The notes: generated by a model not told the origin, from the sequence alone. A stretch of 35,413 nucleotides of DNA from Candidatus Methylomirabilota bacterium (GCA_035260865.1 DATFUK010000259.1:1-35413), one strand, 5' to 3'; shown: positions 1-17,644, counted from the stretch's first letter. A program made the numbers and translations.

Positions 1-738
1 GAGGCGGCGGCGGATCTGGCCCGCTTCGACGTGGTCGTGCTCGATCCGCACGCCCACCCGCCGCTTCCCCTCGTCAAGCGGCACGGCTCGCTGCTGCTGA
101 CTTACGTGAGCCTGGGCGAGGTGAACACGAGCCATCCCGAGTTCGCCGCCGTCGCGAACGAGCCGTGGGTGCTCTCCGCCAACCCGCGCTGGCCCGATGC
201 GCGCCGCCTCGACGTGCGCGCCCCGGCCTACGAGCGGTGGCTGCTCGACCGGGTGGTGCCGGCCGCGCTGGCCGGTCCGGTGAACGGTCTCTTCCTCGAC
301 ACCGTGGACACCGCGCTCGATCTCGAGCAGACCGATCCACGGCGGTTCGCCGGCGCGGCTCACGCGCTCGAGCGCGTGCTCATGGAGCTCCGGCGCCGTC
401 ACCCGCGGGCGCTCCTGATGATCAACGGCGGCCTCCCCCTCGCGGAGCGGCTGCCGACGGTGCTGGACGCGGTCGCCCTCGAGTCCATCTGGACGGACTA
501 CGACTTCAAGGCCAAGGCCTATCGCGTGCGGCCGGCCGACGAGGCGGAGTCCCGGGCGCTCCTCCTCGCCCGGGTGGTCGCGCTGGGCCTGCCCGTGTTC
601 ACCATCGAGTACGCCGCGGCCGACCGCGGCGCGCCCTGGCCGGCCGAGCTGATCCGTCGCGCCCGCGCCCGCGGATTCGTCCCGTACGTCTCGACGATCG
701 GCCTCGACCAGGTCTCGACCCACACTCTGGCGCGGTGA
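1..738 (+). CDS. pelA: PelA-like glycoside hydrolase (GH114/TM1410-type TIM barrel, alpha-1,4-galactosaminidase-like); 5' end cut by the window edge
   Basis: Frame 1 is open from base 1 (EAAADLARFDVVVLDP...) to TGA 736-738, so the GTG at 31 in the ORF track is probably internal. Motifs DVVVLDP, LTYVSLGEV, GLFLDTVDT, LMINGG and ALESIW fit the (beta/alpha)8 hydrolase family that contains the PelA hydrolase domain. It is the first gene of a pelA-G-ordered cluster. Confidence 0.75.
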   Translation, partial: EAAADLARFDVVVLDPHAHPPLPLVKRHGSLLLTYVSLGEVNTSHPEFAAVANEPWVLSANPRWPDARRLDVRAPAYERWLLDRVVPAALAGPVNGLFLDTVDTALDLEQTDPRRFAGAAHALERVLMELRRRHPRALLMINGGLPLAERLPTVLDAVALESIWTDYDFKAKAYRVRPADEAESRALLLARVVALGLPVFTIEYAAADRGAPWPAELIRRARARGFVPYVSTIGLDQVSTHTLAR

Positions 739-5086: not shown

Positions 5087-5145
5087 CCTGGGGCGCCGCG
5101 CCCTCCTCCCTTGAACGCGGCGGACGCCGCCGCCATACTCCTTCG

Positions 5146-6585
5146 GTGACCCCGCTTCGCCTCGCGTGTGCCGTCTGGCTCCTGTGCCTGACCCTGGGTG
5201 CCCCGATCACCGTCGCGCGCGCCCAGGCGCCGCCCGAGGCCCCCGCCCCGTTCGAGGCCGAGATGATGCGGGCGCGCATCCTGGCGCGCCTGGGCATGAT
5301 CGAGGAAGCGCTCGCGGCGTATCGCGCGCTGCTCGAGCGCCACGGGGAGGATCGCGCCCTGCGCGAGGACTACGCGGAGCTCCTCGTGGACGCCGGGCAG
5401 CTCGACCAGGCCGGTCCGGTGGTGGATCGCTACCTGGCCGACGATCCCGCCTCCGCGCGGCTGCGCCGGTTGAAGGCCCGGCTCGACCTGGCCCGGGGCG
5501 CGCCCGCCGAGGCGGGCCGTCGCCTCGACGCGCTGGCGCGCGAGCAGCCGCGCGACGCCGGCCTCACCGCGGACCTGGCCGCCGCCGAGCTCGGCGCGGG
5601 CCGGTGGAGCCGGGCGCTCGATCTCTACGGGCGGATGCTGGATGCGGATCCGGAGAACCGCGAGGTCCTGGCCGCCTACCGCGAGATCCTCCTCGCCCAC
5701 GCCCCGCGCGTCGAGCTGATCCACTCCACGCTGCTCCAGACCGCGGCCACGCACCACGTGGAGGAGGCGGCGTGGCGCGGCTGGCTGGCCGACCGCTGGT
5801 GGCTGCGGGCCGGCGCCCGGTACGGCAGCTATCACCAGGACCCGGTGGTGGGCCGGTCCGCGTTCAGCGAGGAGGTGTGGACCGCGCTGGCCACGGTCGG
5901 CTTCCAGCCCACGCGCGCGCTCTCGCTCTGGGCCGGGCTCGAGGAGTCGCGGCGCCGCGAGGACATCTACCGCACCGTCGGGCGCCTCGGCGCCGCCTAC
6001 GACGACGCCAAGGCCACCAGCGCGACGGTGGACGTGGCGATCCGCGAGCTGCTCACCAATCCGGTGGCCGCGATTCCGCGGAACGGATCGACCGACCGGG
6101 TGACGGTGGACGTGGCCCGGCGCGTCCTGGTCCCGGTGGTGCTGGGCGCCCACTACGACTTCCGCCACTACCGCGTGTCCGGCGAGGAGCTGGGCGACCG
6201 CTGGGAGGCGGCGGGGCGGGCCGAGCTCGAGCTGGTGCGGAGCCGCGTGCAGGTGACGCTGATCCCGCAGGTATTTTTTGCCCGGTACACGCCGACCGCG
6301 GGCGATGCCCTGCGCGAGGCGGTCTCGTTCATCAAGCGCGAAGACGTCCTGGGCATCGGGACCGTGGTGGGCTGGGACGTGACGCCCGCGGTGCGCCTGC
6401 AGGCCGGCGCGGTCGGGCGCCGCGACCTGTTCCGCGCGATCACGTCGTGGGAGGTCAACGGGGAGGGCCGGTGGCGAATTCGCCCCTGGCTGGAGGGGCG
6501 CGTGCTCTATACTCGCAACACCGAGTCCACCACGGTGGGCGGCCAGGAAGAATTCTTCCTCGGCCGTCTCGACATCCTGTACTGA
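5146..6585 (+). CDS. pelB: PelB-like secreted TPR plus outer-membrane beta-barrel protein (C-terminal part of a split PelB)
   Basis: GTG 5146 is followed by a Sec-type signal peptide (MTPLRLACAVWLLCLTLGAPITVARA-QA). About 150 aa of TPR-like repeats come next. The last ~290 aa show alternating hydrophobic/polar strand patterns and end in an aromatic residue (GRLDILY), typical of outer-membrane barrels. Confidence 0.7.
   Translation: MTPLRLACAVWLLCLTLGAPITVARAQAPPEAPAPFEAEMMRARILARLGMIEEALAAYRALLERHGEDRALREDYAELLVDAGQLDQAGPVVDRYLADDPASARLRRLKARLDLARGAPAEAGRRLDALAREQPRDAGLTADLAAAELGAGRWSRALDLYGRMLDADPENREVLAAYREILLAHAPRVELIHSTLLQTAATHHVEEAAWRGWLADRWWLRAGARYGSYHQDPVVGRSAFSEEVWTALATVGFQPTRALSLWAGLEESRRREDIYRTVGRLGAAYDDAKATSATVDVAIRELLTNPVAAIPRNGSTDRVTVDVARRVLVPVVLGAHYDFRHYRVSGEELGDRWEAAGRAELELVRSRVQVTLIPQVFFARYTPTAGDALREAVSFIKREDVLGIGTVVGWDVTPAVRLQAGAVGRRDLFRAITSWEVNGEGRWRIRPWLEGRVLYTRNTESTTVGGQEEFFLGRLDILY
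6545..6560. repeat. Perfect 16-nt AT-rich palindrome AGGAAGAATTCTTCCT flanked by GGCC/GGCC, inside the last 40 nt of the porin gene
   Basis: Read directly from the sequence: 6545-6560 is its own reverse complement. GGCC at 6541-6544 and 6562-6565 could extend the stem with one bulged C. It lies 25 nt upstream of the pelC ATG. Confidence 0.6.
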
Positions 6586-7160
6586 TGACACCTACGTCGC
6601 GGCGTTCGAGGATCCTGCTGCTGGCGGCCGCGCTGCTGACCGCGTCCGGATGCGCGAGCGCGGTCCAGGAGTGGGTGAAGCCCGGCGCCGGTCGGGTCGG
6701 CCGCGTCGCGGTGCTCGCCTTCGAGAACCAGACCACCGCGCTGCGGGCCGGACAGGCCACCGCCGATCTCCTCGTCACCGAGCTGCTCGCCACCGGGGTG
6801 ATCGCGGTGATGGACCCGAGCGAGGCCGCCGACCTCCTCCGCCGCGAGAACCTGGACCCCGCCGACGCGGGCCGCCTGCCGTCCGCGCAGCGGATCGGCC
6901 GGCTCCTGCAGGTGAGCCACGTGCTGCAGGGCTCGGTGACCGAGTATCGTTACAAGCCCGGCCTCTCCGAGACGCCCGCGGTCGGCGTCACCGCGCGGCT
7001 CGTGGAGGTCGCCTCGGGGGAGGTGGTGTGGAGCGCGAGCCACGCCCGCCTCGGCTCCTCGTGGATCCGCGAGGACGGGCTCGCGCGCGTCGCGCAGCAG
7101 GTGGCCCACGACATGGCCGCCCATCTGACGGGCGCCCTGGGCGACGCCCGGGCGCGGTAA
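6585..7160 (+). CDS. pelC: PelC-like outer-membrane lipoprotein
   Basis: ATG 6585 overlaps the upstream stop (TGATG). Lipobox LLTASG-C follows a basic/hydrophobic signal peptide. The VAVLAFENQT core is typical of PelC/CsgG-like periplasmic ring lipoproteins. The size (191 aa) and position match pelC. Confidence 0.75.
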   Translation: MTPTSRRSRILLLAAALLTASGCASAVQEWVKPGAGRVGRVAVLAFENQTTALRAGQATADLLVTELLATGVIAVMDPSEAADLLRRENLDPADAGRLPSAQRIGRLLQVSHVLQGSVTEYRYKPGLSETPAVGVTARLVEVASGEVVWSASHARLGSSWIREDGLARVAQQVAHDMAAHLTGALGDARAR

Positions 7161-7167
7161 GCGCCGG

Positions 7168-8520
7168 GTGCTCGCCCGCCTCCGCCGCGGCCACCCCTAC
7201 CTGCTCGAGCTGGGCGGCGGGCTCCTCGTGCTCGCCGTCGTCAACCTGCTGCTGCGGCCAAAGGACCCGGGCTTCCTCGCGGTACAGCCGAACCCGGCCC
7301 TCCTGCTCGTCGCGGTGCTGGCCTGCCGTCACGGCCTGCGCGCCGGACTCGTGAGCGGGCTCGCGACCGCGGCCCTCGTCTCCGGGTGCATCGTGGCGCG
7401 TCTCGAGTACCTGACCTTCACCGAGCTGCGCACGCTCGGGCACTACCTGACGCCGCTCCTCCTGATCGGCACCGGCTTCGGGCTCGGCGCCCAGCGGGAG
7501 GCCCTGCGCCGCGCCGAGCGCGCGCGGGAGAGCCGCGTCGAGGCGCTCGAGCACGAGCTGGCCGACCAGGCGGTGCGCTTCATGGCCGCCACCGAAGCCA
7601 AGCACGAGCTGGAGCGGCGGGTGGCCGACGAGCGCGCGTCGCTCTCGAGCCTCTACACCGCGGCCCGCGCCCTCGAGACGCTCGACGCGGAGCGGCTCTA
7701 CCCGGCGATCGCGCTCACCGCGCGCCGGTTCCTGCAGGCCGACGCCTGCCAGTGCTACGTGCTGGAGGGCGAGCTGATGCGCCTGCGCGCCGCGGAAGGA
7801 CCCGCCCCCGCGCGGTCCGAAATCCCTCCCGACGACGGGCTGGTCGGCCTGGCCGTCCGCCTCGGCCGCCCGGTGAGCGTGCGCGACGCCACCGCCATCG
7901 GCTCCCTCGACGATCTCCACGGGGCGAGCCTGCTGATGGCGGCCCCCCTGCTGGGTCCGCAGGGCACCCTGCTCGGCTGCATCACGGTGACGTCGCTGCC
8001 CTTCCTGCGTCTCACCCCCGCGTCGCTCGATCGCCTCGGCCTGGTCGCGGACTGGGGCGCGCGGGTGCTCGCGAACGCGCGGACCCATCAGGAGACCCGG
8101 GCGCGCACCATCGAGGACGACCTGGTGGGCGCCTACACCTACGCGTACTACGAGCGCCGGCTCCACGAGGAAGAGGTGCGCGCCGACCGCTACGGCCGCC
8201 CGCTCGCGGTGGTCGTCTTCCGCGTCCACCGCTTCGGAGCGGTGGCGCCGGAGCGCCGCATCGAGCTGGGGCGCGTGCTCTCGCTCGTGTTCTCGCGCAC
8301 GCTGCGCGACGTGGACATCGTGTGCCGCTACGCCACCGAGGACTCCTTCGCGATCATCCTGCCCGAGACGCCGCCCGCGCACGCCGAGGTCGTCGTCGAG
8401 CGCCTGTCGCGCGAGATCGGCAACTTCCACTTCGCCCCCTACGCCGACGAGACGGAGGACCTCGAGTTCTCGGCCCGCGTCCTCGCGGTGCGCGAGCGTC
8501 CCGGGGGAGTGACGTCCTGA
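7168..8520 (+). CDS. pelD: PelD-like inner-membrane c-di-GMP receptor (TM helices, coiled coil, GAF, degenerate GGDEF)
   Basis: Hydrophobic N-terminal third, then a coiled-coil linker, then a GAF-like segment (GLVGLAVRLGRPVSVRD ... LLGCITVTSLPF). The C-terminal GGDEF fold reads RDVD-IVCRY-ATEDSF where active cyclases read RxxD-xxxRx-GG(D/E)EF. The I-site RxxD is therefore kept (8305-8316) and the active site is lost (8332-8346). Confidence 0.8.
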   Translation: MLARLRRGHPYLLELGGGLLVLAVVNLLLRPKDPGFLAVQPNPALLLVAVLACRHGLRAGLVSGLATAALVSGCIVARLEYLTFTELRTLGHYLTPLLLIGTGFGLGAQREALRRAERARESRVEALEHELADQAVRFMAATEAKHELERRVADERASLSSLYTAARALETLDAERLYPAIALTARRFLQADACQCYVLEGELMRLRAAEGPAPARSEIPPDDGLVGLAVRLGRPVSVRDATAIGSLDDLHGASLLMAAPLLGPQGTLLGCITVTSLPFLRLTPASLDRLGLVADWGARVLANARTHQETRARTIEDDLVGAYTYAYYERRLHEEEVRADRYGRPLAVVVFRVHRFGAVAPERRIELGRVLSLVFSRTLRDVDIVCRYATEDSFAIILPETPPAHAEVVVERLSREIGNFHFAPYADETEDLEFSARVLAVRERPGGVTS

Positions 8521-9482
8521 TCGCCGCGCTCCCGGCGGGCTGGCTCGCGGAGGCGATCGCGCTCGCGGTCGCGCTCGCGGGTCCCGCGTGGTGGCCCCTG
8601 GCCCTCGCCGTGCACGCGGCCGCGGCCTGGCTCGCCGGCCGCGGGCTGGGGGACGGGCGCCGCGACGCCCGGTTCCTCGCGGGCGCGCTCGTGCTCTCGC
8701 TGCCGGGCCTCGGCCTGGTCGGGCTCAGCGCGATCCGGTTCTGGCGCAGGCGCGCCGCGCCCTCCGGGATCTACGCGGGGGCCCACTCGGAGATGGCGGG
8801 CCTGCCCGGTCCCGGCCAGTCTCCCGAGCCGGTGGACCGCGTCCTCGACTGGCTGCAGGCCCAGGTCTCGGTGCAGCCGGTCGCGGATCTCATCCGCGCC
8901 GCCGACCCGCGCACGCAGCGCTGGGGCGTGGGGCTGCTCGCCAAGCGCGGAGACGGCGCCGCGGTGGAGCTCCTGCGTGAAGCTCTCGGTGCCGATGACC
9001 GCGACACGCAGATCGCGGCCTCCGGCGCGCTGCAGCGGGTGGAGGAGCGGCTGGTGGCGCGGATCGCACAGGCGCAGGAGCAGCTCCGGCTCGATCCGGA
9101 GTCGCCCGAGCGCCTCGTGGCGGTGGGCGACGCGTGCGTGGCCTACCACGAGAGCCGTCTCCTGGAGGCGGCGATGGGCCGCCACTGGCTCGGGGAGGCG
9201 GAAGCCGCCTACCGGGCGGCGCGCGCGCGCCGCCCGGAGTGGCCCGCGCCGGCCGCGGCGCTGGCCCGGGTGCGGCTGGCCCAGGGCGAGGTCGCGGAGG
9301 CGGAGGCGCTGGCCGCGGAGGCGCGCACGGCCGCGCCGTCCACCGAGGCGGACCTGCTCCTCTCGGAGATCTTCTTCGCCCAGGGCCGGTGGGCCGAGCT
9401 GCGGACGCTGTCGCGCGACGCGGTCGCGGCCGGCCGCGCCGACGACACGCTGCGCTGGTGGGCGGGGGAGCCCGCGGCGTGA
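8517..9482 (+). CDS. pelE: PelE-like inner-membrane TPR protein (start codon uncertain)
   Basis: The frame is open from the pelD stop. Two predicted TM helices (WLAEAIALAVALAGPAWWPLALAV and FLAGALVLSLPGLGLVGLSAI) precede a helical-repeat C-terminus, as in PelE. The first canonical start is GTG 8610, which would remove the first helix. CTG 8517 or ATC 8520 abutting the pelD stop would keep it. Confidence 0.6.
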   Translation: MIAALPAGWLAEAIALAVALAGPAWWPLALAVHAAAAWLAGRGLGDGRRDARFLAGALVLSLPGLGLVGLSAIRFWRRRAAPSGIYAGAHSEMAGLPGPGQSPEPVDRVLDWLQAQVSVQPVADLIRAADPRTQRWGVGLLAKRGDGAAVELLREALGADDRDTQIAASGALQRVEERLVARIAQAQEQLRLDPESPERLVAVGDACVAYHESRLLEAAMGRHWLGEAEAAYRAARARRPEWPAPAAALARVRLAQGEVAEAEALAAEARTAAPSTEADLLLSEIFFAQGRWAELRTLSRDAVAAGRADDTLRWWAGEPAA

Positions 9483-10981
9483 CCACCACGACCCCGCCCG
9501 CCGACGTCTGCCTGATCCTGGAGGGCACGTATCCGTACGTGACCGGCGGGGTGTCGGCGTGGATCCACCAGCTCGTCAACGCGCTCCCCGAGCTGCGCTT
9601 CGCGATCTTCCACATCTCGGCGACGAGCGGGGAGGTGCACGAGCCGCGCTACACGCTGCCGCCCAACGTGGTGAGTCTCGTGGACGTGGGCATCCACGGC
9701 GGTGACGAGCCGGCGGGCCAGAGCCACGCGATGGATCCCGCCTCGTGGGAGAAGATCTTCCAGTATCACGAGGAGCTCAAGGACGGCCGTGCCGACGGCC
9801 TCGGCGACCTCCTGAGCCGGATCTCGCCCCACCAGGGCGCCGGTCCGTCGGTCCACGACTACATCTACGGCAAGCCGTCCTGGGACATCGTGCGGCGCCT
9901 CTACGAGGGCCGGGCCTCCCACATCTCGTTCCTCGACTACTTCTGGACGTGGCGCTTCACCCACCTGCCGATATTCCGGCTGCTGCACGCGCCGGTGCCG
10001 GAGGCCGCCCTCTACCACACCGTCTCCACCGGGTGGGCCGGGCTGGTGGCCGCGACCCAGCGGGTCCGCCACGACCGGCCGATGCTGCTCACCGAGCACG
10101 GCATCTACTCGCGCGAGCGGCGCATGGAGATCGACCAGGCGGAGTGGATCTACGTGCAGCGCCAGGCGCCCATGACCCTGTCGGCCGGGCCCGGCTTCTT
10201 CAAGGAGCTGTGGACCCGGCTCTTCGAGCACCTCTCGCGCATCACCTACGCCCACGCCGACCGCATCGTCACGATCTTCGAGGGCAACCGCCAGGCCCAG
10301 ATCCGCGACGGGGCGGACCCGGCCAAGACGCTGGTGGTGCCCAACGGCATCAACATGGAGCCGCTCGCCGCGCTGCCGCGCGTGGAGGCCGCGCCGGGGG
10401 AGTTCCGCATCGGCTTCGTGGGACGCGTGGTCCCGATCAAGGACGTGAAGACGTTCATCCGGGCGGTCAAGATCGTGAGCGCGACGCTGCCGGGCGCGCG
10501 CGCGGTGATCGCGGGGCCCGGCGACGAGGACCCGCAGTACCTCGACGAGTGCCGCGTGCTCGCCGCGACCCTCGGGGTGGCCGAGCGCGTGGAGTTCACC
10601 GGCCGCGTGGACGTCAAGGAGATCTATCCGCGGATCGACGTGCTCGTGCTCACCAGCATCTCGGAGGGGCTGCCGCTGGTGATCCTGGAGGCGGCCGCCG
10701 CCGGCATCCCGGTGGTCTCCACCGACGTGGGCGCGTGCCGCGAGCTCCTCGAGGGCAGCCAGCCCGCGGACCGCGCGCTCGGAGCGAGCGGGCTGGTGAC
10801 CGGCCTCGCCGACCCGGGCTCCACCGCCCAGGCCATCCTGAGCCTGGCCCGAGACCCGGGCCTGCGCGAGGAGATGGGCCGGGCCGCGCGCAACCGGGTG
10901 CGGGCCCACTACCAGGAGTCCGACCTGATCCGTCGCTACCGGGAGATCTACACCGACATGATCGGCCCGCGGGCGCGCTAG
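9479..10981 (+). CDS. pelF: PelF-like family-4 glycosyltransferase
   Basis: GTG 9479 overlaps the upstream stop (GTGA). The N-terminal CLILEGTYPYVTGGVSAWIHQL block is characteristic of PelF-type enzymes. The C-terminal GT-B domain carries the E-x7-E motif (SEGLPLVILEAAAAG). Confidence 0.85.
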   Translation: MTTTTPPADVCLILEGTYPYVTGGVSAWIHQLVNALPELRFAIFHISATSGEVHEPRYTLPPNVVSLVDVGIHGGDEPAGQSHAMDPASWEKIFQYHEELKDGRADGLGDLLSRISPHQGAGPSVHDYIYGKPSWDIVRRLYEGRASHISFLDYFWTWRFTHLPIFRLLHAPVPEAALYHTVSTGWAGLVAATQRVRHDRPMLLTEHGIYSRERRMEIDQAEWIYVQRQAPMTLSAGPGFFKELWTRLFEHLSRITYAHADRIVTIFEGNRQAQIRDGADPAKTLVVPNGINMEPLAALPRVEAAPGEFRIGFVGRVVPIKDVKTFIRAVKIVSATLPGARAVIAGPGDEDPQYLDECRVLAATLGVAERVEFTGRVDVKEIYPRIDVLVLTSISEGLPLVILEAAAAGIPVVSTDVGACRELLEGSQPADRALGASGLVTGLADPGSTAQAILSLARDPGLREEMGRAARNRVRAHYQESDLIRRYREIYTDMIGPRAR

Positions 10982-10985
10982 GGCG

Positions 10986-12401
10986 ATGGCGGGCATCGGC
11001 TTCCGGCTCAAGCGCCTCATCGTCGAGGACAGCAGCAGCGGCTGGCTGCGCGCGCACCTCTACGGCGCGGTCCTCTCGGCGGGCCCGTGGCTGCTCTCGA
11101 TCTGCACGCTCGGCACGCTCGCCCTCTTCTCCCGGGACCTGATCGGCGAGGCCGCGCACGCGCGCTTCCAGGCGATCGTGGTCTACACCTACACGTTCTC
11201 CCTGATCACCACCGGCGCCGCGCACATGGTGGTGACGCGCCAGCTCGCCGACGAGCTCTACGTGGGCCGCATCGGGAGCCTGGTCGTCTCCTACCGATTC
11301 ACGGTGGGATGGACCGCGCTGGCGCACCTCGGGCTCGGCGGCCTGTTCTACGCGCTGGCGCCCGGGCTCGATCCCGCGCTGCGCGTGTTCGGGGTCATGC
11401 TGCTGGTGGTGGTGTCGTGCACCTGGATGGTGATGATCTACCTGGGCGCGGCCCAGGACTACGCGAGCGTGGTGACCGCGTTCTTCGCGGGCAACCTGGT
11501 GAGCCTGCTCGCCGCGCTGGCCCTCGGCCGCTGGCTCGGCACCACCGGACACCTGGGCGGGTTCCTGCTCGGGCAGGCCGGTATCCTCTTCGTGCTCTGC
11601 GCCCGGGTGGAGCGCGAGCTCGCCGCGGTGCGCGTGCCCGAGACGGTGGATCTCACCGGGGCCTTCGTCCGCTACCCGGATCTGATCGCGGCGGGGCTCC
11701 TCTACAACGCGGCCATCGCGGTGGACCGCATCGCGTTCTGGATCGCGCCGACCGGCCGCACCATCGCGGGCTGGTTCCACGCCTCGCTCTACGACACCCC
11801 GATCTTCCTGTGCTACCTTTCGGTGGTGCCGTCGCTCGCCATTTTCCTCGTCAGCGTCGAGACCGACTTCTACGATCGCTACCGGGAGTACTACGGGGTG
11901 GCGACCAAGCACGGCACGCTGCGGCAGGTGCTCGAGGCCAAGCGGGCCATGACCGCGTGCCTGCGCGACGGCCTGCGCCGGGTGATGGTGGTCCAGGGCC
12001 CACTGACCCTGCTCCTGATGGTGCTGGCGCCGTGGATCGCGGCCGAGCTCATGCTCGACGGGCTTCAGCTCGGGATCATGCGCTGCGGCCTCGTGGGCGC
12101 GCTCCTGCACGTGCTGTGTCTGTTCGGGGGCATCGTGCTGCTCTACTTCGACCGGCGGCGGGCGGCCGCCGAGGTCGCGGGCGTCTTCCTGGCCGCCAAC
12201 CTGATCCTGACCGTGATCACGCTGCTGGTGGGCCCGCGCAGCTACGGGCTCGGGTACCCGCTCGCCGCGCTGCTCGGGTGCGCGTGGGCCTACCATCGCC
12301 TCGAGCAGACCCTGGACGATCTGGAGTACCTGACGTTCGCGGCGCAGCCGATGGCGCCCGAGGCGTCGGCCGTCGAGTCGAGCCCGACCGCATCCGCCTG
12401 A
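10986..12401 (+). CDS. pelG: PelG-like polytopic membrane protein (polysaccharide exporter/flippase-like)
   Basis: 471 aa that are hydrophobic throughout, with about 12 predicted helices. The N-terminal GIGFRLKRL and the position after pelF fit PelG. Confidence 0.75.
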   Translation: MAGIGFRLKRLIVEDSSSGWLRAHLYGAVLSAGPWLLSICTLGTLALFSRDLIGEAAHARFQAIVVYTYTFSLITTGAAHMVVTRQLADELYVGRIGSLVVSYRFTVGWTALAHLGLGGLFYALAPGLDPALRVFGVMLLVVVSCTWMVMIYLGAAQDYASVVTAFFAGNLVSLLAALALGRWLGTTGHLGGFLLGQAGILFVLCARVERELAAVRVPETVDLTGAFVRYPDLIAAGLLYNAAIAVDRIAFWIAPTGRTIAGWFHASLYDTPIFLCYLSVVPSLAIFLVSVETDFYDRYREYYGVATKHGTLRQVLEAKRAMTACLRDGLRRVMVVQGPLTLLLMVLAPWIAAELMLDGLQLGIMRCGLVGALLHVLCLFGGIVLLYFDRRRAAAEVAGVFLAANLILTVITLLVGPRSYGLGYPLAALLGCAWAYHRLEQTLDDLEYLTFAAQPMAPEASAVESSPTASA

Positions 12402-14071
12402 TGGCACATCGCTCGGCGGGCGAGGCCACGCTGGTGGCGGCCCTGCTCGCCCTGCTCGCGGCGGTCATCGTCTACCCGCTGCTCCAGGTGCTGTCGGTCG
12501 CGTTTCTCGAGGACGGGGTGCCGACGCTGCGGCCCCTGCTGGCCTTCTTCGCGCGGCCGCTCTTCCGCGAAGCGTTCGGGAACACGCTGCTGGCCGGAGT
12601 GCTGGCGGTGGCGATCGGCACCGTGATCGCGGTGCCGCTGGCCCTGCTCACCGTGCGCTACCGCTTTCCGGGTCGGACCCTGGTCACGGTGCTGGGCGTG
12701 CTCCCGCTCGTGATCCCGCCCTTCGTGGGCGCGGTGGCCTTCCAGCAGATCTTGGGGCGGAGCGGGGCGGTGAACCTGCTGCTGCGCGAGCACGCGGGCT
12801 TCACGATCCCGTTCATGGAGGGGCTGACCGGGGTCGTGCTGGTGCAGAGTCTCCACTACTTCCCGTTCATCCTGCTGAACACCGCGGCCGCGCTGGCCGG
12901 CCTCGACCGCTCGCTCGAGGAGGCGGCCCAGAACCTGGGCAGCTCGGGACTGCGCCTCTTCCGTCGCGTGCTGCTGCCGCTGGCGCTGCCGGGCTACGCG
13001 GCGGGCGCCCTCCTCACGTTCATCCGCGTGATCGACGACCTGGGCACGCCGCTCATGCTGAACTACACCAAGCTGCTGGCGCCGCAGGCCTACGTGCGGG
13101 TCACCACGATCGGCCTCACGGACGTGGACGGCTACGTGATCTGCGTGATCCTGGTGGCGCTGTCGCTCGGCGCCCTCGCCCTTTCCAAGGTGGTCCTGGC
13201 CCGCGGCGAGTTCGCGGCGCTCGGCCGGGGCGGGGACGCGCCGCCGGTGGCGCTGGGCCCGCGCGGGGCGCTGGTGGCATGGGGGCTCGTGGCGCTGCTG
13301 CTGGGGCCGGCCCTGCTCCCGCACGCGGGCATCCTGCTGCTCTCGGTCTCCCGGGTCTGGAGTCTCTCGCCGCTGCCGAGTGTCTACACCCTCGGCAACT
13401 ACGAGGAGATCCTGGTCCGCTCGCCCCAGTTCATCGCCAACACGGTGCGCTACGCGGGGCTCGCCGCGCTGCTCGACGTGGCCCTGGGCGCGGTGATCGC
13501 CTGGCTCCTGCTCCGCGGCCGGGTGCGCGGGCGGCAGTGGCTCGACACGATCTCGACGGTGCCGCTGGCGATTCCCGGCGTGGTGATCGCGGTCGGCTAC
13601 CTGCGCGCCTTCGGGGCCTTCCGCGTGCCCGGCCTGGGCGAGCCGCTCACCTCGACCTGGCTCATCCTGGTGATCGTGTACGCGGTGCGGCGGCTGCCCT
13701 ACGCGGTGCGCGGGGCCTACGCGGCGCTCCAGCAGCTCTCGCCCGCGCTGGAGGAGGCGGCCCAGAACCTCGGGGCCAACCGGGCGCGGACCTTCCGGCG
13801 CATCACGCTGCCGCTGATGATGCGCGGGCTCCTGGCCGGCGGCCTGCTCGCCTTCATCACCTCCGCGGTGGATCTCTCCTCCACGATCTTGCTGGTGCCG
13901 CGGGTCGAGCTGGGGCCGCTCTCCTACGGCATCTACCTCTACATGCAGTCGGCGGTGGGCCGCGGCCCCGGGGCGGCGCTCGGGGTCGTCGCCATCGTGC
14001 TGGTGGCGGCCGGGACCTGGGCCGCCACCGCGCTGGCGCGGCGCTCCGGGGCCGCGCTCTTCCGGAGCTGA
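12401..14071 (+). CDS. ABC transporter permease with two fused transmembrane domains (FbpB/ThiP-like)
   Basis: ATG 12401 shares its A with the pelG stop (TGATG). There are two copies of the EAA loop signature: EEAAQNLGSSGLRLFRRVLLPLALPG and EEAAQNLGANRARTFRRITLPLMMRG. The protein is 556 aa. Confidence 0.85.
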   Translation: MAHRSAGEATLVAALLALLAAVIVYPLLQVLSVAFLEDGVPTLRPLLAFFARPLFREAFGNTLLAGVLAVAIGTVIAVPLALLTVRYRFPGRTLVTVLGVLPLVIPPFVGAVAFQQILGRSGAVNLLLREHAGFTIPFMEGLTGVVLVQSLHYFPFILLNTAAALAGLDRSLEEAAQNLGSSGLRLFRRVLLPLALPGYAAGALLTFIRVIDDLGTPLMLNYTKLLAPQAYVRVTTIGLTDVDGYVICVILVALSLGALALSKVVLARGEFAALGRGGDAPPVALGPRGALVAWGLVALLLGPALLPHAGILLLSVSRVWSLSPLPSVYTLGNYEEILVRSPQFIANTVRYAGLAALLDVALGAVIAWLLLRGRVRGRQWLDTISTVPLAIPGVVIAVGYLRAFGAFRVPGLGEPLTSTWLILVIVYAVRRLPYAVRGAYAALQQLSPALEEAAQNLGANRARTFRRITLPLMMRGLLAGGLLAFITSAVDLSSTILLVPRVELGPLSYGIYLYMQSAVGRGPGAALGVVAIVLVAAGTWAATALARRSGAALFRS

Positions 14072-14073
14072 CG

Positions 14074-15246
14074 ATGGCGCCGCGCGTCCGGACCGAGTGG
14101 GTGCTGCCGGCCTCGATGCTGCTCGGGACCTTCGCGTGGTCGTTCGTCTACGTGAGCCTGCCGTTCCACATCCAGAAGATGTCGACGCTGGACCCGGGGG
14201 CGACCCTGCGCTGGACCGGCTGGATCCTCGGCATCAGCCCACTGATCACCGTGATCACCGCGCCGATCTCCGGACGCATCGGCGAGCACATCGATCCCAA
14301 GCGCGGCTTCATCGCGGTGCAGGCCTTCCAGGGGCTGGGCTTCCTCGGGATGGCGCTCGCGCGCACGCTGCCCGAGATGCTCGTGGCCCGCGTGCTCCTG
14401 GGGCTGATGGGCGCGGTGTCCACGTTCGCGTTCATCATGGTGGGACGCTCCGGCGGCGACGTGCGGCGCCAGGTCTCCTACATCCAGTCGGGCATGACCC
14501 TGGGGCAGGTGCTGGGACCCGCGGTGGGGGCGGTGGTGGCGGCGCGGCTCGGGTTCCGGCTGTCCTTCATCCTGGGCGGCGTCATGCTGTGGGCCTGCTC
14601 GGCTCTCGTGGCCTGGGGCGTGCCGCCCGGCAAGCCGCGCGACGCCAAGGCCGCGGGCGACCGGCGCACGCCGCCGCGGGAGCTGATCACCGCGTGCCTG
14701 GTCGTGCTCACCGGCTCGACCCAGATCTTCTTCCTGGCCGCGATCCTCCCGCAGATCCTCCCGCGGCTGGGCGTGTCGGGGGACTCCACGCTCGAGGTCA
14801 GCGGCTTTCTCCTTCTGATCACCGGGCTGGCCGCCGCGCTCGGCGCGATGGCCGCCCCGCGCCTCGCCGAGGTCGTCGGCGACCGGCGCGCGTTGATCTG
14901 GTTCCTCCTGGGCTCCTCGGTGCTGGTAGCCGGGCTCGGGGTCGCGGGCAACGTGTGGAGCTTCGGGGCGCTGCGCTTCCTGCAGGTGCTGTGTATCGCG
15001 CCGATCTTTCCGCTCTCGGTGGCCGCGATCGCGCAGCGGGCGTCCGGGGAAGCCATCGGATTCGTCAACTCGGCGCGGATCGGGGCGGCCTTCATCGGGC
15101 CGGTCGTGGCGACGACGCTGCTGTCGTCGATGCCGCCCGCCGCCGTCTACCTGGTGCTGGCCGGCATGGGGCTGTCGGTGATCCCGCTCGTTGCGCGGCT
15201 CAATCGCCGCGCGCGGCCGTGGGACGAGGGAGGGGCGAGGGCGTGA
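14074..15246 (+). CDS. Major facilitator superfamily transporter
   Basis: ATG 14074 lies 2 nt after the permease stop. The 390 aa contain about 12 hydrophobic segments split by a charged central loop (PPGKPRDAKAAGDRRTPPRE). An MFS-like loop motif GRIGEHIDPKRG follows TM2. Confidence 0.8.
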   Translation: MAPRVRTEWVLPASMLLGTFAWSFVYVSLPFHIQKMSTLDPGATLRWTGWILGISPLITVITAPISGRIGEHIDPKRGFIAVQAFQGLGFLGMALARTLPEMLVARVLLGLMGAVSTFAFIMVGRSGGDVRRQVSYIQSGMTLGQVLGPAVGAVVAARLGFRLSFILGGVMLWACSALVAWGVPPGKPRDAKAAGDRRTPPRELITACLVVLTGSTQIFFLAAILPQILPRLGVSGDSTLEVSGFLLLITGLAAALGAMAAPRLAEVVGDRRALIWFLLGSSVLVAGLGVAGNVWSFGALRFLQVLCIAPIFPLSVAAIAQRASGEAIGFVNSARIGAAFIGPVVATTLLSSMPPAAVYLVLAGMGLSVIPLVARLNRRARPWDEGGARA

Positions 15247-16346
15247 GCCAGGATGAGCTGGTCCGGCTGTCGGAAGTGCGCATGGAGGGCGTGGGCAAGC
15301 GCTACGGCGACCACTGGGCGGTGCAGGACGTCTCGCTCTCGATCCGCCCCGGCGAGTTCTACACCCTGCTGGGACCGTCCGGATGCGGCAAGACGACGCT
15401 CCTCCGCCTGCTCGCGGGGTTCATCACCCCGGACACCGGCCGCATCGTCGTGGACGACGAGGCGATCGATCCGATCCCGCCGTGGAAGCGCAACCTCGGC
15501 ATGGTCTTCCAGCACTACGCGCTGTGGCCCCACCTCTCCGTGTTCGAGAATGTGGCCTTCGGGCTCCGCGAGCGCGGGGTCGGCGGCGAGGCCCTGACCG
15601 CGCGAGTGGCCGCCGCCCTCGGCCAGGTGGGGCTCGCCGGCTTCGAGACGCGCCGGCCGTCGCAGCTCTCGGGGGGCCAGCAGCAGCGGGTGGCGCTCGC
15701 CCGGACCCTGATCATCCAGCCCCGCCTGCTCCTGCTCGACGAGCCCCTCTCCAACCTGGACGCGGTGCTGCGGTCGCAGATGCGACTCGAGCTGGCGCGG
15801 CTGCACCGCGACGTGGGCATCACCACCATCTACGTCACCCACGACCAAGCGGAGGCGCTCGCGCTGTCCACGCGCATCGCGGTGCTGAGCCAGGGGCGGA
15901 TCGTCCAGGAGGGTAGGCCGGAGGAGATCTACTGGCGGCCCCGCAACCGGTTCGTGGCCGAGTTCGTGGGCGCCGCCAACCTGGTGGCGGTGCGGGTGCT
16001 CGAGGTGCGCGAGCTGGGCGTGGTGGTGGACACCACCGGTGGCTCGCGCATTCCGGTGGCGTCGGGCGGCCACACGTGGGCGGTCGGAGACCGCGGTCTC
16101 CTCTGCCTCCGGCCGGAGGCGCTGCGCCTCGAGGAGGCCGAGCGCGCGGCGGGGGGCATCCGCGGCAAGGTGGCCGGGCACGTCTTCGAGGGGGCGCGCC
16201 AGCTCTACGACGTCACGATCCCGGGCGGCACCGTGCGGGTGGAGATGATCACCTCCGCGCAGCAGGGCAAGAGCTTCAAGCCCGGCGACGACGTCAAGAT
16301 CGAGATCTCTCCTGAAACCAGTGTGCTCCTCCCCGCGGAGGTGTGA
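15243..16346 (+). CDS. ABC transporter ATP-binding protein (PotA/FbpC/CysA-like with a C-terminal TOBE-like domain)
   Basis: GTG 15243 overlaps the MFS stop (GTGA). It has Walker A GPSGCGKTT, signature LSGGQQQRV, Walker B LLLLDEP and an H-loop in VTHDQ. About 120 aa form a C-terminal regulatory-type extension. Confidence 0.9.
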   Translation: MSQDELVRLSEVRMEGVGKRYGDHWAVQDVSLSIRPGEFYTLLGPSGCGKTTLLRLLAGFITPDTGRIVVDDEAIDPIPPWKRNLGMVFQHYALWPHLSVFENVAFGLRERGVGGEALTARVAAALGQVGLAGFETRRPSQLSGGQQQRVALARTLIIQPRLLLLDEPLSNLDAVLRSQMRLELARLHRDVGITTIYVTHDQAEALALSTRIAVLSQGRIVQEGRPEEIYWRPRNRFVAEFVGAANLVAVRVLEVRELGVVVDTTGGSRIPVASGGHTWAVGDRGLLCLRPEALRLEEAERAAGGIRGKVAGHVFEGARQLYDVTIPGGTVRVEMITSAQQGKSFKPGDDVKIEISPETSVLLPAEV

Positions 16347-16370
16347 TCTGGACGTTCTGGCGCTGCGACG

Positions 16371-16446
16371 GTTTACTTCTTCAGGCTCTATTCAATGCGG
16401 GGGCCCAGACATGGCCCCCGCACTCCCCCAGTCTGCGGACGACCGT
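16371..16446 (+). repeat. Intergenic repeat element, copy A, containing a 10-bp GC hairpin (16396-16422)
   Basis: The 50-nt core 16397-16446 matches the reverse complement of 34971-35020 at 46 of 50 positions by hand alignment. The hairpin is TGCGGGGGCC-CAGACAT-GGCCCCCGCA. The 5' flank (GTTTACT...GCTCT) is more loosely conserved. Confidence 0.8.
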
Positions 16447-16463
16447 TTCGGCGCACGAACAAG

Positions 16464-16472
16464 TGGTGTAAT
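16464..16472 (+). promoter_or_regulatory. Possible extended -10 element (TGgTGTAAT) upstream of the rhodanese gene
   Basis: Motif read directly from the sequence, 24 nt upstream of ATG 16496. No convincing -35 element was found. GGGGGA at 16483-16488 could serve as the ribosome-binding site. Confidence 0.2.
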
Positions 16473-16495
16473 CTTCGCCCCCGGGGGAAATCGTC

Positions 16496-16810
16496 ATGAC
16501 TGATATCAGTCCGCAGGATCTGAAGACTCGGATCGATCGGCGGGATCCGCTCGTGCTGCTGGACGTGCGCGAGGACTGGGAGACCGCGCTGTGCCGGCTC
16601 GAGAACGCGACCCACATTCCGATCGAGGAGATCGAGTTCCGCACCACCGAGCTCGATCCCGCCGACGAGATCGTGGTGTACTGCCACCACGGCGTGCGCA
16701 GCGCCGCGGTCGCCAACTTCCTCCGCCAGCAGGGGTTCAAGGCGGTGAACCTCGCGGGCGGTCTGGACTCCTGGGCGCGCGCGATCGACCCGAAGATGAA
16801 GCGGTACTAG
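16496..16810 (+). CDS. Single-domain rhodanese-like sulfurtransferase
   Basis: 104 aa with the active-site loop CHHGVRS and the LLDVRE and NLAGGLDSW motifs typical of rhodanese domains. Confidence 0.85.
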   Translation: MTDISPQDLKTRIDRRDPLVLLDVREDWETALCRLENATHIPIEEIEFRTTELDPADEIVVYCHHGVRSAAVANFLRQQGFKAVNLAGGLDSWARAIDPKMKRY

Positions 16811-16867
16811 CTTGGCGAGGTGAGCCGCAGGCGAGCCGAGCGAATACGAGAGAGAAGCAAGGGAGAT

Positions 16868-17644
16868 ATGGCCACCAACGGAGGATTCGTCCGCCTCGAC
16901 CGCGACGGTGGCGTCGCCTGGGTCACCCTCGACCGGCCGCCGCTGAACCTGATCGTGCCCGAGATGGTCGAGGGGATCCGCGCCACGTTCGACGCGCTCC
17001 GGCGCGACGCGACGGTGCGGGCCGCGGTCATCACCGGCGCGGGGCGCGCCGCCACCGGGGGCATGCAGCTCCAGGTCCTGCGCGAGCTCGACCCGGGCAC
17101 CGCCCGCGCGTTCATCGCGAGCCTCCACGAGGCGATCAACTTGGTGCACGAGGCGCCCTTCCCCACCGTGTGCATGATCAACGGGGCGTGCCTGGGGGCG
17201 GGCTTCGAGCTGGCGATGGCCTGCGACCTGCGCACCGCGGCCGCGGGCGCCCTGCTGGGCCTGCCCGAGATCCGGGTGGGCATTCCGTCGGTGATCGAGG
17301 CGGCGCTCCTGCCCGGCATGGTCGGGCCGGGGCGGGCCGCGGAAATCTTGCTGACCGGCGATCCGATCACCGCGGAGCAGGCGCTCGCGTGGGGGCTCGT
17401 GAACCGGGTCGCGCCGCCCGCCGGGCTGCGCGCGGTGACCGCGGAGCTGGTCGGGCGCATCGTCGAGTGCGCGCCCACCGCGGTGCGCCTGCAGAAGGAG
17501 CTGATCGTGCGCTGGCGCAACACCGATCAGCGGACCGCGGTCGAGTACGGGATCAACGCGTTCGGCCAGTCCTTCACCACCGGCGAGCCCCGCGAGGCCA
17601 TGGACGCGTACCTCGGCAAGCGCAAGCCCCGCTTCGCTTCGTGA
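16868..17644 (+). CDS. Enoyl-CoA hydratase/isomerase (crotonase) family protein
   Basis: ATG 16868 is preceded by AGGGAGA. The crotonase fold motifs are GAGFELAMACDLR and LGLPEIRVGIP, with both catalytic Glu positions present. The ORF-track start at 16820 is probably too far upstream. Confidence 0.85.
   Translation: MATNGGFVRLDRDGGVAWVTLDRPPLNLIVPEMVEGIRATFDALRRDATVRAAVITGAGRAATGGMQLQVLRELDPGTARAFIASLHEAINLVHEAPFPTVCMINGACLGAGFELAMACDLRTAAAGALLGLPEIRVGIPSVIEAALLPGMVGPGRAAEILLTGDPITAEQALAWGLVNRVAPPAGLRAVTAELVGRIVECAPTAVRLQKELIVRWRNTDQRTAVEYGINAFGQSFTTGEPREAMDAYLGKRKPRFAS

What the first reader, a model, noticed from the sequence alone, without database searches (positions are those of the whole stretch)
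12399..16346. Binding-protein-less ABC transporter interrupted by an MFS gene and fused to the end of the pel operon
The permease ATG shares a base with the pelG stop (TGATG). The MFS gene starts 2 nt after the permease stop, and the ATPase GTG overlaps the MFS stop (GTGA). Bases 1-16346 therefore look like one polycistron. The permease (two fused domains, two EAA loops) and the ATPase (PotA/FbpC-like with a TOBE-like tail) are importer-type parts, yet no substrate-binding protein gene is present. An unrelated secondary transporter sits between them. I do not know of this trio as a described accessory of Pel loci. It might recycle Pel-derived sugars or oligomers, supply a precursor, or be an unrelated hitch-hiker.
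Basis: partly seen in the sequence, partly recalled or inferred. Interest (0 to 1): 0.6.

Follow-up and report, generated by a model that had tools for sequence, protein, structure and literature searches.

The report
ABC importer parked behind pel operon
This is an ordinary binding-protein-dependent ABC nutrient importer whose binding-protein gene was pushed about 21 kb upstream when other genes, including the whole pel biofilm operon, came to lie between them; the only unusual part is an MFS transporter gene that stays paired with the ATPase gene across many relatives.

Summary
The gene calls and junctions are as described: pelG/permease TGATG, a 2-nt gap before the MFS gene, and GTGA at the MFS/ATPase junction. 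The transporter is not binding-protein-less. Orthologous permeases in 59 of 80 genomes from several phyla have a 435-480 aa SBP_bac_6 gene directly upstream. This genome has that ortholog intact on contig C433. A close relative's long contig shows that C433 abuts the window start, which puts the SBP about 21 kb upstream on the same strand. A caspase/FecR block, an RsbW-STAS gene and pelA-G lie between them.

Across 183 genomes of the order, 47 have the permease. PelG sits directly upstream in 18 of them, and 26 have no PelG at all, including members of the same genus. The Pel link is therefore positional. The overlapping junction still makes co-transcription likely.

The unexpected result concerns the MFS gene. 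MFS followed by this ATPase is a conserved pair in 86 genomes, most of which lack the permease. Where the permease is gone, the ATPase loses its LSGGQ and H-loop motifs yet stays under purifying selection.

The substrate is probably an organophosphate, not iron.

The parts
10986..12401 (+). pelG, the last gene of the pel operon. Its TGA overlaps the permease ATG.
   Evidence: Pfam PelG PF16933, E=1.1e-117. Junction sequence.
12401..14071 (+). Fused two-domain ABC importer permease (556 aa, P0001) with two EAA loops.
   Evidence: Two BPD_transp_1 stretches. Full-length but sub-threshold match to PhnU2 TIGR03262. Orthologs have an SBP gene directly upstream in 59 of 80 loci.
14074..15246 (+). 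DHA1-like MFS transporter (390 aa, P0002), tightly packed between the permease and ATPase genes.
   Evidence: MFS_1 1.7e-31. Weak match to MdtG. JGI names it a DHA1 family transporter. Homologs occur in 132 of 183 genomes of the order, and in 86 of them the MFS is immediately followed by the ATPase ortholog.
15243..16346 (+). ABC ATPase (367 aa, P0003) with a C-terminal TOBE_2 domain. All catalytic motifs are canonical.
   Evidence: ABC_tran 3e-39 and TOBE_2 6e-10. Motifs GPSGCGKT / Q / LSGGQQQR / LLLDEP / VTHDQ. It lies in one 100/99-supported clade with all MFS-linked ATPases.
16396..16422 (+). 10-bp G+C hairpin in the 150-nt ATPase-rhodanese spacer. It may be a transcript end or a repeat element; there is no T-run.
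Evidence: MFE fold (z = -1.9 for the 161-nt stretch). No consensus terminator was found.

Best explanation
Bases 12401-16346 encode the membrane and ATPase parts of a canonical type-I, binding-protein-dependent ABC importer. The importer has a fused permease, a homodimeric PotA/MalK-like ATPase with a TOBE regulatory domain, and a cognate periplasmic SBP (P0126, 442 aa, Sec signal peptide). The SBP gene sits about 21 kb upstream on the same strand, on contig C433.

The ancestral layout was SBP-permease-ATPase. In this family of Rokubacteriales, a DHA1-like MFS gene came to lie between the permease and ATPase genes. Regulatory genes, a TPR/caspase/YncE/FecR block and the pelA-G operon came to lie between the SBP and permease genes.

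The pel junction removed the permease's own upstream spacer. In this genome the permease, MFS and ATPase are therefore most likely transcribed by read-through from pel and translated by coupling (inferred, not shown). The SBP keeps its own expression signals.

The substrate is unrelated to Pel and is most likely an anionic organophosphate such as 2-phosphoglycerate, 3-phosphoglycerate, PEP or a sugar phosphate (inferred). The MFS protein is a long-standing neighbour of the ATPase. Its role is unknown, and it is most simply a co-expressed independent carrier.
For: Displaced SBP:
- An SBP ortholog (43-88% identity) lies directly upstream of the permease in 59 of 80 loci across phyla.
- This genome's ortholog is intact.
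- C433 is collinear with G097:C13 and ends about 67 bp before the window start.
- In four pel-carrying relatives with long contigs an intact SBP lies 14.7-22.7 kb upstream on the same strand; in a fifth, G083, only a pseudogene remnant sits there.

Pel link is positional:
- Of 47 permease-bearing genomes, 18 have PelG directly upstream and 26 have no PelG.
- Pel-less loci in the same genus have SBP or FecR upstream instead.
- The breakpoint lies within the first 3-4 codons of the permease. Pel-less relatives have a GTG start and a conserved spacer of about 55 nt.

Working parts:
- The ATPase motifs are canonical.
- dN/dS for the three genes is 0.12-0.24.

Substrate:
- The FbpA iron ligands Tyr-Tyr are replaced by Phe-Phe, while the 'SGT' anion site shared with AfuA and P5PA is kept. 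In AfuA, Thr150 and Ser37 bind phosphate (PMC4546632).
- All three parts match the PhnS2/PhnT2/PhnU2 models best.
- JGI labels the SBP cluster PgtC.
- Orthologous loci in Paracoccaceae and Alcaligenaceae carry a PgtC-like sensor SBP, a PgtB-like kinase and a PgtA-like regulator directly upstream. In Salmonella, PgtCBA senses PEP, 2-phosphoglycerate and 3-phosphoglycerate (PMC9306846).
Against: - No transcript data were available.
- 15 of 47 permease-bearing genomes have no SBP hit at 1e-100. These include G085 (about 100% complete) and G054 (95%). G083 has an SBP pseudogene, and contig L009 lacks the SBP at its syntenic place. The system may therefore work, or decay, without its SBP in some relatives.
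- The contig join between C433 and C259 is inferred from a relative, not assembled.
- The substrate assignment rests only on homology and on gene context in distant orthologs.
Confidence: 0.75

Rival explanations
1. The trio is a functional accessory of Pel. It would import or recycle Pel-derived GalN/GalNAc units or supply a precursor, and it would be kept behind pelG for that reason.
For: In this order, PelG lies directly upstream of the cluster in at least 18 of 24 PelG-bearing genomes from three genera. A 19th genome (G088) has pelG directly followed by the MFS gene. The overlapping TGATG junction is conserved in several pel-carrying loci.
Against: The same cluster is intact without pel in 26 genomes, including members of the same genus. 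The SBP-permease-ATPase family is widespread, with no pel gene within the fetched flanks in other phyla. The cluster is syntenic with the downstream rhodanese/ECH/HAD/apt block, not with pel. In pel-carrying lineages the importer is often being dismantled: SBP pseudogene in G083, permease deleted in G088, degenerate ATPase in L010 and G054. The SBP resembles organophosphate binders, not amino-sugar binders.
Confidence: 0.06
2. The MFS protein and the ABC ATPase form a functional unit. The NBD-TOBE protein would gate, regulate or energise the MFS carrier, much as E. coli TrkH depends on the ABC ATPase SapD. The ABC permease would then be a second client of the same ATPase.
For: The MFS gene is immediately followed by the ATPase gene on the same strand in 86 genomes, with 4-nt overlaps or gaps under 20 nt. 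The flanks have turned over completely. In G088 the permease was cleanly deleted but MFS-ATPase was kept. Permease-less ATPases remain under purifying selection, with dN/dS 0.09-0.12. A precedent exists in SapD/TrkE-TrkH (PMC9629497).
Against: All 86 pairs descend from one origin in one family, so the adjacency may be inherited synteny. The MFS gene has decayed or vanished in at least 8 sampled genomes while the ATPase persists, and 26 genomes have the ATPase without an MFS hit. Five permease-ATPase loci have no MFS gene (L009, L018, L020, G106, G134). No coupling-helix (EAA-like) motif was found in the MFS protein. No structural or biochemical test was possible.
Confidence: 0.12
3. The importer in this genome is a decaying remnant that no longer transports anything, left stranded by the insertions.
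For: Relatives show repeated independent erosion: loss or pseudogenisation of the SBP, deletion of the permease, and loss of ATPase catalytic motifs in at least 5 lineages.
Against: In this genome all four genes are intact. The ATPase motifs are canonical, the SBP keeps its signal peptide and is 94-95% identical to orthologs, and dN/dS is 0.12-0.24.
Confidence: 0.07

Closest known systems
AfuABC (hexose/heptose-phosphate importer) and the P5PA pyridoxal-phosphate importer of Actinobacillus and Citrobacter
   Same: These are among the best solved-structure matches of the SBP (4r72 at 9e-13, 6wce at 2e-12; the top hit, 8x1a at 3e-14, is an uncharacterised 'iron-compound-binding protein'). They share the 'SSGT/SGT' anion-binding helix start. 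Both were mis-annotated as iron transporters, have a fused permease and a PotA-like ATPase, and bind organophosphates (PMC4546632, PMC8427247).
   Different: Similarity is distant (E-values around 1e-13). The sugar-contacting His205 of AfuA aligns to Ile. The SBP here carries an extra helical C-terminal extension of about 110 aa. The operon is split and contains an MFS gene.
FbpABC / HitABC / FutABC ferric-iron importers (the label automatic annotation gives)
   Same: Same SBP cluster, same fused permease architecture, and an FbpC-like ATPase with a TOBE tail.
   Different: The iron-coordinating Tyr-Tyr pair is Phe-Phe here, so ferric-ion binding of the FbpA type is not expected.
PhnS2-PhnT2-PhnU2, the putative 2-aminoethylphosphonate ABC transporter (TIGR03261/03265/03262)
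   Same: Best NCBIfam match for all three parts. The permease and ATPase align over their full length.
   Different: All scores are far below the curated cut-offs (107 vs 393, 350 vs 458, 146 vs 593). No phosphonate catabolic genes lie nearby.
Salmonella PgtCBA-PgtP phosphoglycerate/PEP uptake system
   Same: JGI names the SBP cluster PgtC. Orthologous loci in Paracoccaceae and Alcaligenaceae carry a PgtC-like SBP, a PgtB-like kinase and a PgtA-like sigma-54 regulator upstream of the importer. An MFS carrier is also part of the Salmonella locus (PMC9306846).
   Different: In Salmonella, PgtC is a sensor, not a transport SBP, and the carrier PgtP is an OPA-family antiporter. Here the SBP feeds an ABC permease, and the MFS is DHA1-like with no OPA match. 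This genome has no PgtBA genes at the locus.
SapD (TrkE) and TrkH in E. coli: an ABC ATPase needed by a non-ABC transporter
   Same: It is a precedent for an ABC nucleotide-binding protein serving a carrier of another superfamily (PMC9629497). This resembles the conserved MFS-ATPase pair seen here.
   Different: No interaction has been shown here. The permease-less ATPases here have lost the LSGGQ motif and the H-loop histidine.

Membership tests
Type-I binding-protein-dependent ABC importer | Permease with a BPD_transp_1 fold and an EAA coupling loop in each half | tested here: met
   Two BPD_transp_1 stretches. Two EEAAQNLG...LP motifs in P0001.
Type-I binding-protein-dependent ABC importer | ATPase with Walker A, Q-loop, LSGGQ, Walker B and H-loop | tested here: met
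   GPSGCGKT, Q, LSGGQQQR, LLLDEP and VTHDQ are present.
Type-I binding-protein-dependent ABC importer | Cognate secreted substrate-binding protein encoded in the genome | tested here: met
   P0126 at G000:C433:8519-9847(-) has a signal peptide and an SBP_bac_6 domain. It is orthologous (73% identity) to the SBP next to the nearest SBP-linked permease, and the SBP lies next to the permease in 59 of 80 loci. Physical pairing was not tested.
FbpABC-type ferric iron transporter | SBP with the Tyr-Tyr (plus His/Glu) iron ligands | tested here: not met
   'NNYY' of the FbpA-type chain 7w3w aligns to 'IDFF' in P0126.
PhnS2/T2/U2 2-aminoethylphosphonate transporter (NCBIfam equivalogs) | Scores above the curated cut-offs for TIGR03261, TIGR03265 and TIGR03262 | tested here: not met
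   Scores were 107.1 against a cut-off of 392.75, 349.9 against 457.7, and 145.7 against 593.25.
Pel locus accessory gene set | Co-occurrence with pel beyond shared ancestry, and absence where pel is absent | tested here: not met
   26 of 47 permease-bearing genomes of the order lack PelG. Orthologs in other phyla have no pel gene within the fetched flanks.
Pel locus accessory gene set | Co-transcription with pelA-G | not testable with these tools
Only the overlapping junction and the lost spacer argue for it.
OPA-family organophosphate:Pi antiporter (PgtP/UhpT/GlpT) for the MFS | Match to OPA family models | tested here: not met
   NCBIfam hits for P0002 are MdtG and DHA-type models only. No OPA model appears.

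The most novel reading that the evidence does not exclude
The real unit of conservation is not the ABC transporter but an MFS carrier plus an ABC-type NBD-TOBE protein. This pair persists for long evolutionary times without any ABC permease. The NBD has turned into a catalytically degenerate but strongly selected subunit that senses nucleotide or ligand and controls the MFS or another partner. If so, it would be a new kind of hybrid between the two largest transporter superfamilies. In the window, the same ATPase would serve both the permease and the MFS.
Probability: 0.12. Interest if true: 0.75.

Novelty: new variant of a known kind. Interest (0 to 1): 0.35.

Why it matters
This case shows how an apparently orphan, 'binding-protein-less' ABC transporter and an apparent new Pel accessory can both result from operon break-up by insertions. 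The missing partner was recovered by synteny across contigs.

It corrects the 'iron(III) transporter' label carried by hundreds of Rokubacteria proteins and points to organophosphate uptake, which bears on phosphorus scavenging by abundant soil bacteria.

The side result is new. A family-wide MFS-ATPase pair exists, and a degenerate ABC ATPase is retained under purifying selection after its permease is lost. This gives a concrete, testable lead on non-canonical roles of ABC nucleotide-binding proteins.

Tried and rejected
- Consensus scans found no sigma-70-like promoter. The only terminator-like site in 10500-17200 is a weak one inside pelG, no more than shuffles give. This is uninformative for a 72% G+C organism.
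- I first read the MFS gene as a simple insertion into the permease-ATPase operon. That reading became doubtful once MFS-ATPase pairs without a permease were found.
- I considered that the MFS might replace the SBP. I rejected this because MFS and an adjacent SBP coexist in G084, G114, G120, G050, G108, G109, G136 and G140.
- I considered a purine-related substrate, based on a phosphoribosyltransferase next to the SBP in the Binatia/delta clade, apt downstream here, and a xanthine/uracil permease in Bordetella. Each association is confined to one clade (3-5 loci), so I did not adopt it.
- Neighbours of MFS homologs in the sister family were a radical-SAM protein, an amidase, DctM and a TPR protein. 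They gave no substrate clue.
- Literature searches for Rokubacteria Pel and for MFS plus ABC-ATPase pairs found nothing relevant.
- Structure prediction and fold search were not run. They could not decide the open questions, because complexes cannot be modelled with the tool.
Full report
OBSERVATION. The window is contig C259 of a 4.9-Mb, 86%-complete MAG with 72% G+C. Its closest protein homologs are named Methylomirabilota or Rokubacteria. The pelG stop and the permease ATG overlap as TGATG, and the permease runs from 12401 to 14071. The MFS ATG at 14074 follows the permease TGA after 2 nt. The ATPase GTG at 15243 overlaps the MFS stop as GTGA, and the ATPase ends at 16346. Pfam confirms PelG (1e-117), a permease with two BPD_transp_1 domains and two EEAAQNLG loops, an MFS_1 protein, and an ABC_tran plus TOBE_2 ATPase. 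Downstream lie genes for rhodanese, enoyl-CoA hydratase, a HAD hydrolase, adenine phosphoribosyltransferase, 3-hydroxyacyl-CoA dehydrogenase and acyl-CoA dehydrogenase, followed by an unrelated Liv-type ABC system.

THE MISSING BINDING PROTEIN. A scan of species-representative genomes returned 80 loci with permease homologs of 51-94% identity. In 59 of them a 435-480 aa SBP_bac_6 gene lies directly upstream of the permease on the same strand. These loci come from Pseudomonadota, Binatia, Myxococcota, Poribacteria, Armatimonadota and other Rokubacteria. The family is therefore an ordinary SBP-permease-ATPase importer.

I searched the window's own genome with the SBP of the nearest SBP-linked relative. 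The search found one strong ortholog (73% identity, 8e-206) at C433:8519-9847 on the minus strand. It is an intact 442-aa protein with a Sec signal peptide and no permease beside it.

The 147-kb contig G097:C13 of a same-genus relative (94% permease identity) is collinear with C433 in reverse complement. After about 67 bp it continues collinear with base 1 of the window. The inferred layout in this genome is:
- GAF histidine kinase
- SBP
- TPR (-), caspase-like Peptidase_C14 (-), YncE-like propeller and FecR
- an RsbW-kinase/STAS fusion, which I call 'x276'
- pelA-G
- permease, MFS and ATPase
- rhodanese

The SBP lies about 21 kb upstream of the permease on the same strand.

HOW THE LAYOUT AROSE. 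Relatives show intermediate states:
- G084 has kinase-SBP, then 1.6 kb, then permease-MFS-ATPase.
- G050 has SBP, then x276, then permease-MFS-ATPase.
- G158 has SBP-x276-pel-permease, without the caspase block.
- G085 and contig L009 have FecR followed by the permease, without pel.

In same-genus relatives that lack pel, the permease starts with GTG behind a conserved spacer of about 55 nt. In pel-carrying loci that spacer is gone, and an ATG overlaps the pelG stop. The breakpoint lies within the first 3-4 codons of the permease. This is the best available argument that the permease is now expressed by read-through and translational coupling from pelG. A 10-bp G+C hairpin at 16396-16422 may mark the end of the unit.

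CO-OCCURRENCE WITH PEL. I searched all 183 genomes of the order.
- 47 genomes have the permease ortholog.
- 24 genomes have PelG.
- In 18 genomes PelG is directly upstream of the permease. These are most of the window's genus, plus G158 and three members of a second genus.
- 26 permease-bearing genomes have no PelG at all.
- In three genomes PelG lies on a different contig from the permease. In two of these (G079, G094) the placement is unresolved by contig breaks. In the third (G163) the SBP lies upstream of the permease, so pel is not adjacent.

On the permease tree, the pel-linked loci sit inside a 9-row subclade of a 16-row Rokubacteria clade. The block is syntenic with its downstream neighbours, not with pel. 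One old insertion with several deletions would explain this, as would spread by recombination among relatives. In either case the link is positional.

THE MFS GENE. The MFS gene is not a casual insertion.
- MFS homologs occur in 132 of 183 genomes.
- A single ATPase ortholog per genome occurs in 120 genomes. In this genome it is the window's ATPase.
- In 86 genomes the MFS gene is immediately followed by that ATPase gene on the same strand. Another 8 are interrupted by contig ends.

Most of these genomes have no permease. Examples are G119, G102 and G115, which have MFS-ATPase-rhodanese and the rest of the block. G068, G071, G135, G046 and G016 have MFS-ATPase with unrelated flanks and no ABC membrane gene. 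In G088, pelG is followed directly by MFS-ATPase, so the permease has been cleanly deleted.

The ATPase tree places all these proteins and the window's ATPase in one clade with 100/99 support. That clade is sister to canonical SBP-permease-linked ATPases.

Where the permease is gone, the ATPase loses catalytic motifs. LSGGQ becomes L[ST]L[EAD][QE] or similar, and the H-loop His becomes Arg, Ala or Pro. Sometimes the Q-loop Gln is also lost. Walker A, Walker B and the TOBE domain are kept. This happened independently at least five times. It also happened in two loci that still have a permease (L010 and G054). Even so, these degenerate ATPases have dN/dS of 0.09-0.12 in close pairs, the same as the canonical ATPase at 0.12.

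The MFS gene is itself dispensable for the ATPase. It is reduced to remnants or absent in 8 sampled loci that keep the ATPase. Five permease-ATPase loci lack an MFS gene. All four combinations therefore exist: permease-ATPase, permease-MFS-ATPase, MFS-ATPase and ATPase alone. Only the ATPase is universal.

All the pairs trace to one origin in one family, so inherited synteny cannot be separated from functional coupling with these data.

EROSION IN RELATIVES.
- G083 (about 100% complete) has an SBP pseudogene with an internal deletion of about 130 codons, a frameshift and a C-terminal deletion.
- L009 lacks the SBP between the kinase and TPR genes.
- 15 of 47 permease-bearing genomes have no SBP hit.
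- G054's permease is unusually diverged: 65% identity, against 79% in its pel-less genus-mate G050. Its ATPase is also degenerate.

In the window's genome, by contrast, all four genes are intact and canonical.

SUBSTRATE. The 'iron(III)' label is not supported. The Tyr-Tyr iron ligands of FbpA-type proteins align to Phe-Phe in P0126. Among the best solved-structure matches are AfuA, a sugar-phosphate binder, and P5PA, a pyridoxal-phosphate binder. The top hit is an uncharacterised protein labelled iron-compound-binding. The AfuA and P5PA matches share the SGT anion site (PMC4546632).

All three transporter parts match the putative 2-aminoethylphosphonate set PhnS2/T2/U2 best, but far below the cut-offs. 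JGI labels the SBP cluster PgtC. In orthologous loci of Paracoccaceae and Alcaligenaceae, three genes sit directly upstream of the importer:
- a paralogous sensor SBP
- a PgtB-like kinase (NF047794, 2e-48)
- a PgtA-like sigma-54 regulator (NF047793, 1e-83)

In Salmonella, PgtCBA senses PEP, 2-phosphoglycerate and 3-phosphoglycerate (PMC9306846). An organophosphate substrate is therefore my best guess, at roughly even odds. It is an inference only.

VERDICT. The sequence observation is correct. 'Binding-protein-less' and 'Pel accessory' are not supported, and 'hitch-hiker' is. The importer itself is a new, uncharacterised member of a known kind, with a scrambled operon. The conserved MFS-ATPase pairing and the selected, degenerate, permease-less ATPases are the part worth following up.

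Noticed in passing
G083:C189 = L109:1770-2525: The SBP ortholog in this roughly 100%-complete same-genus MAG is a pseudogene. The signal peptide is joined out of frame to residue 165, and there is a second deletion in the C-terminal extension. Its permease, MFS and ATPase are intact.
   Followed up: yes
G088:C50 = L112:10463-14200: pelG is followed after about 80 nt by the MFS gene and then the ATPase gene. The permease gene has been cleanly deleted, and the ATPase already shows LSGSQP and an H-loop His-to-Arg change.
   Followed up: yes
L120, L121, L123, L125-L134 (G068, G071, G135, G046, G016, G009, G033 and others): A second, syntenic locus type has this order: [MFS], a degenerate ATPase, a convergent 254-aa metallo-beta-lactamase/PDEase_II-like gene, a B12-binding protein and a homocysteine S-methyltransferase. 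The ATPase has lost LSGGQ and the H-loop His but has dN/dS of about 0.1. In several genomes the MFS gene is reduced to fragments.
   Followed up: partly
G000:C433:2267-8413 (L098), just upstream of the window: A four-gene block sits between the SBP and the pel operon: FecR-domain protein, YncE-like beta-propeller, 924-aa Peptidase_C14 (caspase-like) protein and 514-aa TPR protein. It is present in some relatives and absent in others (G084, G158). Its function was not examined.
   Followed up: no
G000:C433:56-886(-), directly upstream of pelA: A 276-aa fusion of an RsbW-like anti-sigma kinase and a STAS anti-sigma antagonist. In pel-less relatives it lies directly upstream of the permease, in some (L019, L034, G050, G158) as two separate ORFs. 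It may regulate whatever follows it.
   Followed up: partly
window 16396-16422: A perfect 10-bp G+C hairpin (GCGGGGGCC...GGCCCCCGC) lies in the ATPase-rhodanese spacer, with no T-run.
   Followed up: partly
L049, L052, L057, L066, L074, L077, L084, L086 (Paracoccaceae and Alcaligenaceae): Orthologous importers are preceded by a PgtC-like sensor SBP, a PgtB-like kinase and a PgtA-like sigma-54 regulator. This is a Pgt-type sensing module driving an ABC importer instead of the MFS carrier PgtP.
   Followed up: partly
L011 (labelled Verrucomicrobiia) and L021 (labelled Candidatus Nitrosocosmicus): These contigs carry the Rokubacteria-type locus at 84-89% identity, so they are probably mis-binned contigs in those MAGs.
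   Followed up: no
L017 / G097:C13 and G096:C40: The permease, MFS, pelD and pelG matches are split into pieces in these long-read MAGs. This is probably from assembly indels rather than real frameshifts.
   Followed up: no
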